Assembly: GCA_964016885.1 (NCBI GenBank)
Contig: OZ024742.1
Span: 57,164,001-57,228,000 of the forward strand
Length of the DNA: 64,000 bases
Reading direction: 5' to 3'
From: Eledone cirrhosa
Taxonomy: Eukaryota
Below, piece by piece: positions 31,193 through 63,768 of this stretch (the stretch's first letter is position 1; each line of letters begins with the position of its first letter). The position numbers and the translations under genes are program-made. Under the pieces are notes generated by a model. That model was not told the origin of the DNA, did not search any database, and was given only the letters and a program-made list of their open reading frames with translations.

Positions 31193-33184
31193 GATTTCTT
31201 TATTTACCATAAGGGCATAAAAAGAAGGGAAAAATACAAAGGGGGAGTTTACATATAATCGAGTAAAAAGGGTGTAACATGAAAATAATCGAAAATAACC
31301 TCAAAAGGGAGGGGACGTGATGGGGGTTGCACACACCCTCGAAAAAGTGTGCAATCCTTTGCCCGGGGAGCACATGGAGAAGGTGCTCCCCTCTCCTTTA
31401 CTTCTTTACCTACAGGATGGTATACAGAGAAGGCCCATTTACACGAGCCATTCTCGCCACTATCACCCACCTTTCATAAAACTGCCCGTGGCCAAGCACC
31501 TCTCTCTCCATTCTTATCCTTCTTCCGAAGTGATATCGGAAGAAGTAGACCAGACTATGGCCAGAGAGGAAGTTGCCTGACCTCAGACCTTTCAATCGTG
31601 TCCACCAAACAACCTCTTTCAACATGGCTATTACGCACAGAAAAACCGCCTTTGCTTCCTTTGTGAAGAGGGGAGGCGGTTTGATTGTCATCACGGACTC
31701 GGCGGTCAATTTAATCGGCGCCACCCGCGACAGCAGTTGTTCGGCGTAGCCCCACAGATCAGCCACGCCCGGACATTGCACCAATGCGTGCGCCACGGTT
31801 TCTTCGTGACGCACGCATCTAGGGCAAATCTTTTTTGAGGGATCCCTGCCCGGGCGCCCGTGTCTGTAGAGCCTCTCTCGAACGGGTAGAGCCCCTCGGT
31901 AGCACTGCCAGGCCAGTGACTTCTGGAAGTTGTCCATTGGTCCTGGGCCGAAAGTCCTACCGAACAGGCTGGCCAGTTCGTCTTCTTCCATGTCCAGCGA
32001 CTCTCCAAGGGTGTCATCGCCCCTGCTAGCCACCAGCCCTCTATAGAATGATGAGGTGGATTCTCCACCGATGGCCCGGCCCGCTTGCCAGAGAGCCCTG
32101 AGCGCCTGAGCACACTCAGTGTGCCAGTCTCCCAGTTTCCGGATCTTTGCTTGACCCAGGACTGTAGCTCGGTGAGTGAGACGAGTCTCGGAAAGGCTCG
32201 TTTCACGAACGGAGCCCACACCGGTTGACCAGTGAGGAATACCTGTAGGTGCCGTAGCCTTAATGCGTGCCTACGCATCATCAACCACGGCATCCCCAGC
32301 CCTCCTTTCGAAGGTTGTTGGCAGCAGATGGATCTTCTCACCATAGGAGGACGCTTCTTCCAAAGAAATTGGAAGAGCATGCGTTCCATGGTGGTGAGTG
32401 TTTCCTTAGGGCAAGGCACGACAGTCAGGCGGTAGTAAGTGACGGACGCTATGTAAATGTTCGCCACCTCCGCCCGGCCTTTTAGGGACAGCTTACACTT
32501 GGCCCATTTCTGGGTTAGTGCAAACACCTTGTTCGTAACCTCGTTCCAGTTCTTTTCCACCTGGAGGTCCGGTCCAAACCAGACCCCAAGCAACTTTACC
32601 GGGCCCTCCGTCCAGTGTCCGACGACACCGTCAGGAGGCATCGGTTTGCCTCTCCACGTTCCGAGTTGCAGCCCGATGGATTTTTCCCGGTTCAGTTTCG
32701 CTCCTGACAACCTTTCGTACTCCTCCAGTAAGGTACCGATCGCCTCGATCTCCGAGTCGGTTGATACCATTACTGTTACGTCATCGGCGTAGGCCGACAC
32801 CGCTTTGCTCAATCCTGGTTCCAGGGGGATACCCTGCAACAACTCCAACTTCCTCAGTAAAGGCTCGAGAGTCAATACGTACAGAAGGGAGGAGAGAGGG
32901 CACCCCTGTCGAATGGATCGTGTGATTTCGAACGGCTTCGAAAGGTAGCCGTTCACCTTGATCCTAGAACAGATGTGGTTGCTATGTAGGGCAGTGATCC
33001 AGCCTCTGAAAACAGGACCGAACCCAGCCGCCGCTAGCACCGCATCCAGGTAACCATGGTCGACCCTATCGAAGGCCTTAGACTGATCCAAGTTGATCAG
33101 GGCCCCACCGAAGCCGGGTTTGTTGCCAACCCTCTCTATGATGTATCGCATGAGGTGGAGGTTATCGTGAATGGACCTGGATGG

Positions 33185-33187
<3 letters not shown>
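31193..33187 (-). mobile_element. 5'-truncated Tx1/L1-like LINE in (GATA)n
   Basis: LDQSKAFDRVDH, RQGCPLS, AYADD (ORF 31706-33319), then a frameshift to CPRC..ETVAHALVQC (ORF 31410-32219). (GATA)n on both sides. A second 3' end lies at ~31075-31170. Confidence 0.92.
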
Positions 33188-33219
<32 letters not shown>

Positions 33220-33947
33220 CAAATTTAAAATGCGAGGAAATAATAGATAAAAATATACCTATTCTTTCTTCAAAATCCCGACTGCAGTTTCTTCGGATTG
33301 CTTTGCAGAAACCATGCACTATAGAAGTGCATCATCACTGTTAGGTTAATAAGGCTTATGAAGGGATCCCTCAATTAGTGGACTGTTTCTTGACCCGATC
33401 GTTATAAGTGAATAATTCTCGAGAGGCGGGTGGACATTAAGCGAGTACTGTATTTGCTAGAAAAAGCAGTTAGCACCCGCCTGGATAACTCGACCATAAG
33501 GTATTTTGGGACAATATAGTAATGAGATACACACACAGATACGTAGATATGTGTGTGTGTAGCGCCCGCCTTATTTCTGAAATTCGAAATGAACTTCAAT
33601 CAAAACAAAAATAAGCGATTATCTACTAATAACTGCATATTTTGAATAAAATAAAATCTAATGTTTTATTACAGTCCATTTTCATTGAATAAATATTTTA
33701 TTAGAATATCAGAAGCAAATATTAGGTTGTGGTGAAGGCGGTGTATTGTGTGACATTAATATTTTAACAAACAATGATATAAAACAATTCTTTGAAACAC
33801 AATACCTGATAACGAATTACTTCACCGTGTGAAAGAATAGTTAATGATCAAAAATATACTATGTCTCAAACATTTACTTATGTTCTATAACCTCATAGTA
33901 TCTTCGGCAACATTAAAGGGAATAACTATTTATTAAACACTTAATTA

Positions 33948-53796: not shown

Positions 53797-54690
53797 AGTA
53801 TGTATGTACACGTACATACATATATGTATACAGACGTACAGTAATGTATATATATATACATACATGCACATATATATATATATATGTACGTATGGGTTTA
53901 CCGAACATTTATTATAATGTTCAGTTTGTTTGTAAACAAACAGCCTGAATTACACCGTACAGTGTTCAGGCAACCATCGTCGCCTTTTTGTTCAACACTG
54001 ACACAGGAACGATGTACTAGTTTCAAGCTTATTAGCTATCGTCAGCATCGTATACCTTCCTGCCAGATGATTGAACGTCTGAAAGTATATACTTTCCTCA
54101 TGCATATTAACGGCTGAGCAGCTTAATTTGCATATCGAATGAGTTAGTCGGTATACATATATGTATGTACTTATACATACATACTTACATTTAAGTATCA
54201 GCCGTACTAAGAGTGAGAAATGAAATTTCGTTTCATTCTTTTCCATTTATCGTTTTCAGTTCGCTAACTCCGGCCGACTAACTCATTCGACATGCAAATT
54301 AGGCTGCTCAGCCGTTAATATGCATAAGGAAAGTATATACTTTCAGACGTTCAATCATCTGGCAGGAAGGTATACGATGCTGACGACAGCTAATAAGATT
54401 GAAACTAGTACATCGTTCCTGTGTCAGTGTTGAACATAAGGCGACGATGGTTGCCTGAACACTGTACGGCATAATTCGGGCTGTTTGTTTGTTTACAGAC
54501 AAACCGAACATTATAATAAATGTTTGGTAAACCCATGCGTACATATATATATGTGTGCATGTATGTATATATATATACATACTACTGTACGTCTGTATAC
54601 ATATATGTATGTACGTATACATACATACTTACATTTAAATATCAGCCGTACTAAGAGTGAGAAATGAAATTTCGTTTCATTCTTTTCTAT
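53792..54690. mobile_element. Family B inverted plus partial-tandem cluster
   Basis: One arm 53792-54150, then the opposite orientation 54152-54690. HHRs at 54009-54051(-) and 54374-54416(+, stem II mutated). Confidence 0.85.
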
Positions 54691-59515: not shown

Positions 59516-59630
59516 ATGTAAAATTACTTCTCTGAATGATATCTTATCTGTATATTTTATCCATTCATTGAGATATCTAAGTATTAGAAACAAATAACTT
59601 CTTAATTAATATATATATATATATATATAT

Positions 59631-60270
59631 TCCTGTGCTGAAATACGATTCTCGCTAATTTATATTTGTATTAATCTCCAGAGTCTAGCTATTGAGCAGT
59701 TAATTTTATTGATTTTTTTTAGTTGCTTCTATTGACTGTTGAATAGCTCTGTTATATTTAACCATTCTGTCGAGAGCTTTATTCGATTTGTGATATTTTG
59801 CATTCTCGCAATATTATACACAACTGAATCATTCGCAAAATAGAGGTGTTGCCTCCCTTGCTGAACTCCACGTGGGGTCTGTAATAGACACACGTTCTAT
59901 AGCATCCTAGAACAAAACCCGTTGATAATACGACTTCCTTGTTCATCATCTTACCTGAAGCCAGACATTCTTTATGGAGGCGGACAGTACCTGATTTTGG
60001 AGTCGCAGAAACCAATACTGGATTTTACCATCAGTCGAGGGTCCGGGAAAGTATCAACACATATATTTTTATTGTTTGACCCGAATTACTTGGTCGTTTG
60101 TTTTGGCTGTGCGGATGATATGTTTAACCATCATCTCAGTGTGTTTGGCCCTTAACGTATGTTGTAGCTCTGATTCACATGAATCATCGAGCGCTTGCTA
60201 CACGTATCGGATGTTGATTTTCGTTAATTCCTGTGCTGAAATACGATTCTCGCTAATTTATATTTATATA
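59631..60270. mobile_element. Family A repeat, inverted and diverged, with ~38-bp terminal direct repeat
   Basis: tcctgtgctgaaatacgattctcgctaatttatattt occurs at 59631 and 60229. Confidence 0.8.
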
Positions 60271-60821
60271 TATATTGAATTATTTTCCCATATCTTACGT
60301 TAAATATTTTCCATATTGACGTTATAGTCACTTATATATTATGAAATAATTGTTTCTATTTTAGGCACAAGGCCAGCAATTACCCAGTACATTACTGGTA
60401 CTTTATTTTATCGACCCCGTAAGGATGAAAGGCAAAGTTAACCTCGGCGGGATTTGAACTCAGATTATGAAATATATTATGAAATAATGTTGGCTTCTTG
60501 CTCACATTAATTTCTCTATTTTCATTTATATTTATACTCGGAATTTTCCCTAGAGTGCTTAAAATTATTTGTGACTAATCCCGGTCTTTTTTTTTTAAAC
60601 CGCGATAATATTGCTTTATGCTGAACTCCATACATTTTGTTGAGTTTTTTCGGAATGTTTTGACTGGTGTTTCTTGTAAACAGACATTCGTCTCATTCTG
60701 ACGTCACTAGCTCTGATCTGCATGTGTGTTTATTATCTTAATTCCACACGAGGTGTACAAGTCTGCTTTTAAATTCCCTTTCTGGCATATTTTAGTAGTG
60801 ATTTTGGTTATCGTGTTTGAG

Positions 60822-60900: not shown

Positions 60901-61083
60901 AATTTCCAAATTGAAGGATAAGTATTTAACCTTAATTTTATTCTAAGTTAAGACTCTATTGGTTTTTTACCTGGATTTCACAAAATCTGTGGATAAAATT
61001 TCTGTCTTGAATTTTTTTGAATTGCGATTGAATTATTTTCCCATATCTTACGTTAAATATTTTCGATCTTGACGTTATAGTCA

Positions 61084-61157
<74 letters not shown>

Positions 61158-61163
<6 letters not shown>

Positions 61164-62925
61164 TATGTATACGTACATACATATATGTATACAGACGTAC
61201 AGTAGTATGTATATATATACACAAACATGCACACATATATATATGTACGTATGGATTCACCAAACATTTATTATAATGCTCGGTGTGTTTGTAAACAAAC
61301 ATCCCGTATTAAGCCATAGTGTCTAGCAACCACCGTTGCTCGTTTGTTCAACACTGACAAAGGAAGGCTGTACTAGTTTCAAGCTTGTTAGCTATCGTCA
61401 GCAACGTATACCATCCTGCCAGATAGTTGAACGTCCGAAAGCATATACTTTCCTTATGTATATTAACGGCTGAGTAGCCCAATTTGCATATCGAGTGGGT
61501 TAATCGGCCGGGTGCACCGAAAACGATAAACGGAAAAAATGAAACGAAATTTCATTTCCCACTCTTAGTACGGCTGTTACTTAAATATAAGTATGTATAC
61601 GTACATACATATATGTATACAGACATACAGTAGTATGTATATATATATATACATACATGCACACATATATATATGTACGTATCGATTCACCAAACATTTA
61701 TTATAATGCTCGGTGTGTTTGTAAACAAATATCCCGTATTAAGCCGTAGTGTCTAGCAACCACCGTTGCTCGTTTGTTCAACACCGACAAAGGAACGCTG
61801 TACTAGTTTCAAGCTTGTTAGCTATCGTCAGCAACGTATACCTTCCTGCCAGATAGTTGAACGTCCGAAAGTATATACTTTCCTTACGATAGCTAACAAG
61901 CTTGAAACTAGTACAGCGTTCCTTTGTCAGTGTTGAACAAACGAGCAACGGTGGTTGCTAGACACTACGGCTTAATACGGGATGCTTGTTTACAAACACA
62001 CCGAGCATTATAATAAATGTTTGGCGAATCGATACGTACATATATATATGTGTGCATGTATGTATATATATATATATACATACTACTGTACGTCTGTATA
62101 AATATATGTATGTACGTATACATACTTATATTTAAGTAACAGCCGTACTAAGAGTGGGAAATGAAATTTCGTTTCATTTTTTCCGTTTATCGTTTTTGGT
62201 GCACCCGGCCGATTAACCCACTCGATATGCAAATTGGGCTAATCGGCCGGGTGCACCGAAAACGATAAACGGAAAAAATGAAACGAAATTTCATTTCCCA
62301 CTCTTAGTACGGCTGTTACTTAAATATAAGTATGTATACGTACATACATATATGTATACAGACGTACAGTAGTATGTATATATATATATATACATACATG
62401 CACACATATATATATGTACGTATCGATTCACCAAACATTTATTATAATGCTCGGTGTGTTTGTAAACAAGCATCCCGTATTAAGCCGTAGTGTCTAGCAA
62501 CCACCGTTGCTCGTTTGTTCAACACCGTCAAAGGAACGCTGTACTAGTTTCAAGCTTGTTAGCTATCGTAAGGAAAGTATATACTTTCGGACGTTCAACT
62601 ATCTGGCAGGAAGGTATACGTTGCTGACGATAGCTAACAAGCTTGAAACTAGTACAGCGTTCCTTTGTCGGTGTTGAACAAACGAGCAACGGTGGTTGCT
62701 AGACACTACGGCTTAATACGGGATGTTTGTTTACAAACACACCGAGCATTATAATAAATGTTTGGTGAATCGATACGTACATATATATATGTGTGCATGT
62801 ATGTATATATATATATATACATACTACTGTATGTCTGTATACATATATGTATGTACGTATACATACTTATATTTAAGTAACGGCCGTACTAAGAGTGGGA
62901 AATGAAATTTCGTTTCATTTTTTCT

Positions 62926-62927
<2 letters not shown>
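61158..62927. mobile_element. Family B tandem and nested-inverted array (retrozyme-like)
   Basis: 430-nt period. Complete HHRs at 61365-61407(-), 61795-61837(-) and 62618-62660(+). Orientation flips at ~61886, ~62241 and ~62569. Confidence 0.9.
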
Positions 62928-62961
<34 letters not shown>

Positions 62962-62966
<5 letters not shown>

Positions 62967-63191
62967 TGTATATATAGTGTATTTTGCAATACACTGTATG
63001 CTTAATTAAAAGCTTTTCGAAAACCTTATGCAATTGTTTTAGAGTAGTGACAGTCTCACTTACTTTAATTTTCAGCAAACAGGGGAGATAAAGCTGACAG
63101 AGCTCTGTTTCGCATTTCTTTATGCTTATCAAAGCTAACTACTCCTCCTCTTTGTTGAAAATCATGAATGTTTGATTCTCATAGAATTCTA

Positions 63192-63269
<78 letters not shown>

Positions 63270-63768
63270 CTATATACAATATTAAATAAATGGAAAACTA
63301 TATTTATTTAATATTGTAAATATACTCCAAGTATTTGTCGAGTGCTTTTATATCAGTTATAAATATTTACTAGTTGTAACCCAACAATTTTAAATATAAC
63401 TTTACATATATCGCTATATATATATATCGCTATTTCAGAGCACCAATTCTAATTTTCAATTTCTGCTTGACCTGCCACCGCTCTGTATAATCAGTTACTG
63501 ATTATTACTAGAATTCTATAAGAATCAAACATTCATGATTTTCAGCAAACAGGAGGAGTAGTTAGCTTTGATAAGCATCAAAAAATGCGAAACAGAGCTA
63601 TGTCAGCTTTATCTCCCCTGTTTGCTGAAAATTAAAGTGAGACTGTCACTACTCTAAAACAATAGCATAAGGTCTTCGAAATGCTTTTAATTAAGCATAC
63701 AGTGTATTGCAAAATACAATATATATACATTCATATATATATCGCTATTTCAGAGCACCAATTCTAAT

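What the first reader, a model, noticed from the sequence alone, without database searches (positions are those of the whole stretch)
61525..62927. Palindrome of a palindrome: nested fold-back duplication of the ribozyme unit
Seen: orientation runs F-F|R|F|R. The junction at ~61886 (ctttccttacgatagct) is the exact reverse complement of the junction at ~62569 (agctatcgtaaggaaag). So an already inverted block was mirrored again about ~62230. Diagnostic variants agree: agacatacag at 61621 mirrors ctgtatgtct at 62828, and gatgcttgtt at 61981 mirrors aacaagcatc at 62465. The first flip falls inside the HHR core (CTGA|CGA). Inference: successive snap-back priming, like rolling-hairpin synthesis, during or after insertion. 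This goes beyond the single inverted pLTR known for truncated Penelope copies.
Basis: partly seen in the sequence, partly recalled or inferred. Interest (0 to 1): 0.8.

Follow-up and report, generated by a model that had tools for sequence, protein, structure and literature searches.

The report
Doubly folded Penelope-type ribozyme insertion
This is a copy of a small, hammerhead-motif jumping element whose inverted junction is present twice in mirror image, likely because a new DNA strand folded back once on a built-in hairpin and then rejoined the element's normal far end; similar multiply flipped copies occur at a few other places in the genome.

Summary
The nested palindrome is in the assembly as described: F-F|R|F|R, with junctions J1 (61886) and J3 (62569) as exact mirror images around a 14-nt-loop hairpin (J2, 62214-62241). 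The 428-nt unit is a high-copy, non-autonomous Penelope-type hammerhead repeat (retrozyme) in (TA)n. Both outer ends are the family's two fixed termini; 38 of 38 surveyed F|R copies with both termini use opposite ones, so both target ends were primed. Eight other loci have the four-arm layout with opposite termini: one is an exact analogue (L143), two repeat J1 directly, and a very young one (L154) has two snap-backs in a row. Best reading: one snap-back at J2 copied back across the older J1, then re-annealed to the homologous right arm. A single rolling-hairpin run fits less well, because variants nest as (F1,((F2,R2),(R1,F3))), which hints at a time gap. Breakpoints do not cluster at the ribozyme (4 of 72; 8.4 expected). 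Read support was inconclusive; diverged arms and unmirrored flanks argue against an artefact. A new variant of known Penelope tandem/inverted structures.

The parts
61086..61153 (.). (TA)n target tract, left flank
   Evidence: sequence
61154..61581 (-). F1: first full 428-nt unit; starts at family terminus A (phase 1)
   Evidence: terminus A shared across the family
61366..61406 (-). Type I hammerhead motif in F1 (one stem I base changed at 61366)
61526..61581 (-). 56-nt 'tail' between termini B (phase 373) and A (phase 1)
   Evidence: reading as a PLE tail is inferred from PMC11167929
61582..61886 (-). F2: second unit, cut at phase 306
61796..61836 (-). Intact type I hammerhead motif (stem I 5 bp, stem II 4 bp, 2-bp palindromic stem III); predicted cut between 61801 and 61800
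   Evidence: no Rfam match
61828..61886 (.). J1 (61886/61887) and its imperfect inverted repeat: 61828-61840 pairs with 61874-61886 at 10 of 13, 33-nt spacer
   Evidence: (pair I4), sequence; 24-mer found only here
61887..62241 (+). R1: inverted arm, phase 245 down to about 321 of the preceding unit; its hammerhead lacks the first core bases
62214..62241 (.). J2: hairpin turn, 7-bp stem with one mismatch and a 14-nt loop; centre of the mirror
   Evidence: 22-mer found once
62242..62568 (-). F3: mirror copy of R1 (5 differences in 327)
62561..62577 (.). J3: exact reverse complement of J1
62569..62931 (+). R2: mirror copy of F2 (1 difference in 304), then a 56-nt tail (62876-62931; 2 differences from the F1 tail) ending at family terminus B
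62619..62659 (+). Intact type I hammerhead motif in R2
62932..62963 (.). (TA)n target tract, right flank; the sequence beyond does not mirror the left flank

Best explanation
The locus is a hammerhead-motif repeat in a (TA)n tract whose inverted junction occurs twice in mirror image between the family's two fixed termini, likely because a strand snapped back once on a built-in hairpin, copied back across the older junction and re-annealed to the homologous right arm. Steps: (1, inferred) A Penelope-type enzyme acting in trans primed reverse transcription from both target ends, at terminus A on the left and terminus B on the right, giving the family's usual head-to-head F|R copy. (2, open) J1 is either the join of those two cDNAs or an earlier snap-back at a 10-of-13 inverted repeat, at about even odds. 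(3, inferred) A + strand running through R1 folded at the J2 hairpin and made F3, J3 and the near part of R2. (4, inferred) It re-entered the right arm by homology between phase 43 and the tail and finished at terminus B. Step 3 more likely (about 60%) came many generations after J1, during replication or repair of the palindrome, than during insertion. Shown directly: the layout, the mirror junction, the hairpin, the two termini and the variant pattern.
For: Termini: 38 of 38 F|R insertions with both ends recognisable use opposite termini (20 A-B, 18 B-A, no A-A or B-B) among 93 insertions surveyed, and this locus does too. In 17 of 36 clean F|R cases neither arm fits inside the other (one is a tandem duplicate, L124 is borderline), so a second primed end is needed. 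A purified PLE protein cuts and extends both strands and starts at two sites bounding the tail (PMC11167929). Analogue L143 has mirror junctions, a hairpin centre and opposite termini; its R1 starts at phase 314 and its R2 runs to 375, although its left arm covers only 1-137. L137 and L140 repeat J1 directly, as expected if re-entry comes before J1 is crossed. The automatic scan gave a spacer of 70 nt or less at 13 of 14 measured direct R-to-F turns; at L154 it picked the first turn, and the second lies at a short perfect palindrome. Timing: F1/F2 differ at 10 of 299, the J1 arms at 7 of 351, the mirror pairs at 6 of 631 (Fisher p 0.014-0.035 for F1/F2 against mirror pairs). Derived bases shared by F2+R2 (family 7 of 276) and by R1+F3 (family 2 of 243). 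The arms of the youngest F|R loci differ at 1 of 2095 sites, so two such copy errors at insertion have a chance of about 0.01-0.15.
Against: No read or contig was shown to span a junction. The timing rests on 2-4 sites: J1 arms against mirror pairs gives p 0.29, and ordinary loci also carry shared variants (13 shared, 67 private; 8 of the 13 from one array), so gene conversion could mimic a time gap. Site 61785 (F2, F3, R2 against F1, R1) needs a reversion or a conversion. Very young multi-flip loci (L154 0 of 838; L140 0-4 differences per pair) show that such structures can form at or just after insertion. Short spacers are partly forced by my search design; the combined p over the ten turns I treated as not forced is only 0.06. 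The two R2-tail variants co-occur in none of the 23 family units listed as carrying either, so they do not prove a separate template. No autonomous partner with RT plus GIY-YIG was found among 24 long ORFs scanned.
Confidence: 0.68

Rival explanations
1. One continuous rolling-hairpin run at insertion: the left cDNA snapped back at J1, again at J2, and was then captured by the right end.
For: J1 lies at a 10-of-13 inverted repeat with a 33-nt spacer (sequence), and only 3 of 36 ordinary F|R joins have arm depths within 70 nt of each other. L154 has two snap-backs in a row with identical arms. Snap-back before 5' junction formation is reported for R2 insertions (PMC11371274 passages).
Against: R1 would be a same-moment copy of F2, yet it lacks F2's derived base at 61625 while R2 has it. 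CpG sites are not clearly hypermutable here (2.7% against 2.3%), so parallel mutation is unlikely. The exact stop at terminus B still needs a second primed end. In L137, L140 and L143 the first junction cannot be a self-copy of the strand that made the turn.
Confidence: 0.14
2. Re-mobilised inverted donor: the template RNA already contained J1 (transcribed from an older F|R locus), both cDNAs crossed it, and J2 is their ordinary head-to-head join.
For: It explains both termini, the mirror junction and the shared variants in one event.
Against: The exact J1 24-mer exists nowhere else in the assembly (no mismatches allowed). Ordinary two-end joins are rarely near-symmetric (3 of 36), whereas J2 has a 14-nt loop. 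Templates are mostly homogeneous. It does not explain the direct repeats of J1 at L137 and L140.
Confidence: 0.08
3. Assembly or library artefact: a fold-back read chimera or a misjoin in a palindrome.
For: Palindromes and PLE tandem/inverted structures are hard to assemble (PMC8557442 passage). No spanning contig was listed.
Against: A hairpin read copies one duplex, so its arms should be identical and its flank mirrored. Here R1 and F3 differ at 5 of 327, 6 of 8 arm substitutions are transitions, and the mirror stops at terminus B with a different flank beyond it. Eight other loci show four arms with opposite termini.
Confidence: 0.05

Closest known systems
Penelope-like elements with partial tandems, an inverted 5'-truncated copy and a one-sided tail (Craig et al. 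2021, PMC8557442; Arkhipova et al. 2013, PMC3846280; passages read)
   Same: Tandem units, head-to-head inverted arm, a short tail at one end only, (TA)n targets, hammerhead in the repeat.
   Different: No ORF; tail of 56 nt against 30-40 nt. The passages describe a single inversion, not a junction repeated in mirror or direct form. Arkhipova 2013 reads the inversion as self-priming; the arm-containment and opposite-termini counts here require a second primed end.
Animal non-LTR retrozymes (Cervera and de la Pena 2020, PMC7229834, passages; Li et al. 2026 preprint 10.64898/2026.07.22.740005, part 1 of 5 and passages)
   Same: Non-coding tandem unit within the 150-450 bp range, low GC, type I hammerhead in each unit, thousands of copies.
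   Different: Neither main text discusses inverted arrays: 'inverted' occurs 0 times in the first and once, in a reference title, in the second. Expression, cleavage and circular RNA were not shown here.
Poseidon PAc two-site internal initiation (Frangieh et al. 2024, PMC11167929; parts 1-2 of 4 read)
   Same: Two start sites bounding the tail, both strands cut and extended, AT-rich targets, ribozyme cleavage not needed for insertion.
   Different: An autonomous lizard element tested in vitro; the later joining steps were left untested there. The opposite-site rule and the fold-back products are not in the parts I read.
Snap-back 5' junctions of R2 insertions (PMC11371274, passages) and L1-associated inverted duplications by self-annealing (10.1101/2024.12.14.628481, passages)
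   Same: A 3' end self-primes at a small hairpin with little homology and makes an inverted copy before joining.
   Different: Those have one RT-primed 3' end and end-joining to the other side. Here both ends are element termini, and the copy appears to be resolved by homology to the opposite arm.
Replication-based fold-back and inverted triplication (ODIRA, PMC4689423; fold-back inverted duplications, PMC3907307; search listing and start of abstract only)
   Same: An inverted copy templated at a short interrupted inverted repeat in genomic DNA.
   Different: Those are kb-to-Mb copy-number changes. This is a 0.7-kb event confined to one retroelement insertion.

Membership tests
Type I hammerhead ribozyme (metazoan form) | Conserved core with stems I and II and a 1-2 bp palindromic stem III | tested here: met
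   Across 152 distinct copies (collected with a core pattern allowing 2 substitutions, so core conservation is partly built in), the five stem I pairs, which lie outside that pattern, hold in most copies; one pair reads TG 97, GT 30, AT 16, CG 2. The form matches PMC4209133 (passages).
Type I hammerhead ribozyme (metazoan form) | Match to an Rfam hammerhead model | tested here: not met
   No match at the gathering score in the window; no hammerhead family among the 150 of 157 rows shown at E up to 10.
Type I hammerhead ribozyme (metazoan form) | Self-cleavage | not testable with these tools
   Needs in vitro transcription. The minimum-energy fold of one monomer showed stem II but not the whole active fold.
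Animal non-LTR retrozyme | Non-coding tandem units of a few hundred bp, each with a type I hammerhead, in many copies | tested here: met
   Units of 422-503 nt, arrays up to 19 units; 2710 exact 31-mer core matches.
Animal non-LTR retrozyme | Expressed as linear and circular RNA | not tested
   No RNA holder was listed; this is no evidence either way.
Penelope-like element insertion (non-autonomous) | Head-to-head inverted arm, with a tail at one end only | tested here: met
   38 of 38 F|R copies with both termini use opposite ones, 56 nt apart.
Penelope-like element insertion (non-autonomous) | Insertion into AT-rich or microsatellite targets | tested here: met
   (TA)n on both sides here and at most flanks printed.
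Penelope-like element (autonomous) | RT plus GIY-YIG ORF bounded by the repeat | tested here: not met
   No ORF of 150 aa or more at this locus. No GIY-YIG among 24 long ORFs from the window and fetched loci; the RT hits have LINE-type partner domains or none. The genome was not searched for the partner.
Rolling-hairpin synthesis (parvovirus-like; features recalled) | Terminal junction present in both flip and flop orientation | tested here: met
   J3 is the reverse complement of J1.
Rolling-hairpin synthesis (parvovirus-like; features recalled) | All turns self-primed on one strand in one run | tested here: inconclusive
   Geometry allows it here, but the variants argue against it. It is excluded at L137, L140 and L143 and fits the first two turns of L154.

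The most novel reading that the evidence does not exclude
Penelope-type head-to-head insertions are always built from two cDNAs primed at opposite tail sites, not by self-priming, and the palindromes they leave keep remodelling in place: repeated rounds of hairpin snap-back and homologous re-entry, at insertion and long after it, stack junctions into nested palindromes, so that one locus records several dated fold-back events.
Probability: 0.35. Interest if true: 0.68.

Novelty: new variant of a known kind. Interest (0 to 1): 0.45.

Why it matters
How Penelope-like elements form their tandem and inverted structures is described as unresolved (PMC8557442, PMC11167929). This family offers thousands of natural products for testing it. 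The opposite-termini rule and the arms that cannot be copies of each other point to two-ended priming in vivo and give a mechanistic link between animal retrozymes and Penelope elements. The four-arm loci, of the order of 1% of insertions (1 of 93 unselected), expose a snap-back and re-entry step that can be looked for in the existing in vitro system. The single locus has no evident function; its value is as a mechanistic record.

Tried and rejected
Read check: the four runs laid on 62140-62315 were contigs only, from at most two samples of one study; no listed piece bridged J2 and most were about 50 nt, so no verdict. No RNA holder was listed. Rfam found no hammerhead; the miRNA-type hits reflect the long hairpins and lie below their cut-offs. 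Breakpoint clustering at the ribozyme: not seen. CpG hypermutability as a cause of the shared F2/R2 base: not supported. A family haplotype behind the two R2-tail variants: not found. Register test (are the arms copied from the same units?): mostly uninformative because units within a locus are near-homogeneous. Seventeen of the 18 hits had a (TA)n-rich tract between the two motifs and were not counted as direct turns; five of the 19 other hits (L147, L149, L150, L151, L153) have a TA tract or an unassigned gap at the turn and were not counted either. L138 has four arms but terminus A at both ends and was not counted among the eight. L136 was fetched in error and used for no count. Three look-ups in earlier findings returned nothing. 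No paper on nested or repeated junctions in PLEs or retrozymes appeared in eight searches; supplements were not read and most subscription papers are not searched.

Full report
Observation. The stretch 61526-62931 is its own reverse complement at 97.7%. With phase 1 at 61154 and a 428-nt unit, the locus reads F734(1>306) | R1(245>~321) | F3(~349>245) | R2(306>373), between two (TA)n tracts. J3 is the exact mirror of J1. The J1 24-mer occurs twice in the genome, both here, and the J2 22-mer once. J2 is a hairpin already present in the unit: a 7-bp stem with one mismatch and a 14-nt loop. J1 lies at a 10-of-13 inverted repeat with a 33-nt spacer (and sequence).

What the unit is. The minus strand of F carries a type I hammerhead motif with a 2-bp palindromic stem III, the metazoan form described in PMC4209133 (passages). 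One stem I pair varies on both sides and stays paired in 145 of 152 distinct copies. Rfam does not recognise it and cleavage is untested. The exact 31-base core occurs 2710 times, in arrays of up to 19 units. There is no ORF at the locus, and no GIY-YIG partner among 24 long ORFs scanned. It fits an animal retrozyme with Penelope-type insertion features.

Family survey. I segmented 93 insertions of 200 nt or more in 82 stretches chosen without regard to flips (best matches, first-listed places, and the window's second copy). Ends fall at two termini 56 nt apart, A (phase 1) and B (about 373). All 38 F|R insertions with both termini recognisable use opposite ones. Of 36 clean two-segment cases (one a tandem duplicate), 3 have arm depths within 70 nt and 17 have arms of which neither fits inside the other. 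So the ordinary inverted arm is not a plain self-copy, and both target ends were primed. This agrees with a PLE protein that cuts and extends both strands from two start sites bounding the tail (PMC11167929), and differs from the self-priming reading in PMC3846280. The test does not exclude a snap-back followed by transfer to the second cDNA. Four of 72 junction ends lie in the ribozyme against 8.4 expected (p 0.14); the selection of loci biases this count down.

Are there other second-order loci? Eight gapped-pattern searches for an R-to-F turn, covering roughly 57% of possible turn positions by my estimate and needing exact motifs, gave 37 loci. Fifteen have a direct turn, this one included. 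Seven of the other fourteen have four or more arms and opposite termini (L137, L140, L141, L143, L144, L145, L154; L141 with an unassigned 244-nt gap), and L101 from the unselected survey makes eight. L143 is an exact analogue with mirror junctions; its R1 and the far end of its R2 hold sequence that its left arm lacks. L137 and L140 repeat J1 in direct orientation. L151 has mirror junctions but a TA tract at the centre. L154 has two short snap-backs in a row, then a microhomology join, with arms identical at 838 of 838 sites. L143, L144 and L146 turn at the same built-in hairpin near phase 130-150. The spacer was 70 nt or less at 13 of 14 measured direct turns, and L154's second turn lies at a short perfect palindrome; part of this is forced by the search (combined p 0.06 over ten turns).

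Mechanism. One model covers the mirror and the direct forms. A strand passing J1 into the right arm snaps back at a small hairpin. If it moves to the homologous opposite strand before reaching J1, the junction is repeated directly. If it crosses J1 first and then re-anneals to the right arm, the junction is mirrored and the far end is terminus B. All of this is inferred from geometry. At this locus J1 could be a two-end join or an earlier snap-back: near-symmetry favours a snap-back, most other multi-flip loci and the variants favour a join; I put it at even odds.

Timing. Against family allele counts, F2, R1, F3 and R2 share a derived base at 61683; F2 and R2 share one at 61625; R1 and F3 share one at the 61729 site; 61785 is derived in F2, F3 and R2 only. 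Differences are 10 of 299 between F1 and F2, 7 of 351 across J1, 5 of 327 and 1 of 304 for the mirror pairs, and 2 of 56 in the tail. This nests as (F1,((F2,R2),(R1,F3))). The youngest ordinary loci have 1 difference in 2095 sites between arms, so two copy errors at insertion have a chance of 0.01-0.15. That leans to a later mirror. Against it: the numbers are small (p 0.29 for J1 arms against mirror pairs), ordinary loci show 13 shared to 67 private variants, conversion between arms could give the same pattern, and L154 and L140 show formation at or soon after insertion.

Artefact. Reads gave no verdict. A fold-back read would have identical arms and a mirrored flank. These arms differ at 8 sites, 6 of them transitions, the mirror ends at terminus B, and the layout recurs. 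I leave 5%.

Comparison and novelty. Complex tandem and inverted PLE insertions, one-sided tails and (TA)n targets are known, as are snap-back junctions of R2 and L1 and replication fold-backs (listing only). I saw no description of mirrored or repeated junctions in PLEs or retrozymes in eight searches; supplements were not read. Interest 0.45.

Noticed in passing
window 62954-63742: A second, unrelated inverted-arm element abuts the right flank (arms about 240 nt, 94% alike). Relatives at L011, L074 and L134 also have inverted arms, and L074 looks four-armed. No hammerhead core pattern was found in it.
   Followed up: partly
window 53800-54690: Another copy of the same family, an ordinary F345|R539 with termini A and B, about 86% alike to the focal unit.
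   Followed up: yes
L154 (G000:C3:333887900-333890700): Very young four-arm locus with two short snap-backs in a row and arms identical at 838 of 838 sites; the best candidate for checking formation at insertion with raw reads.
   Followed up: partly
L140:1545-1571: The R-to-F turn holds a run of about 20 A, and J1 is repeated directly; L138 and L141 have 15-24-nt locally templated inserts at junctions, which recalls polymerase-theta joining (recalled, not tested).
   Followed up: no
L100, L119, L065, L085: Some ordinary F|R junctions sit at the same built-in hairpins as the snap-back turns (phases 345|347, 331|335, 132|148, 235|222); they may be hidden snap-back and re-entry events. Five of 36 have offsets of 17 or less against about 3 expected (my count), so no clear excess.
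   Followed up: partly
L104-L118, L132-L134: Seventeen places have two family copies tail to tail with a short (TA)n-rich tract between them, which suggests repeated insertion into the tract next to an earlier copy.
   Followed up: no
L072: Two different F|R insertions are each duplicated in tandem with their flanks, so their junctions are repeated directly at about 0.8 and 2.6 kb spacing.
   Followed up: no
L146:1202-2257, L142, L152: R|F palindromes without outer arms; in L146 the flanking non-family DNA is also inverted (93% over 207 nt).
   Followed up: no
window 60274-60339 and 61027-61092; 59629-59671 and 60227-60269: Short direct duplications of flank sequence left of the element (66 nt at 97%, 43 nt at 98%).
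   Followed up: no
window 31413-33331 (-): Two overlapping open frames with RVT_1 and zf-RVT matches, a LINE-type remnant unrelated to the finding.
   Followed up: no
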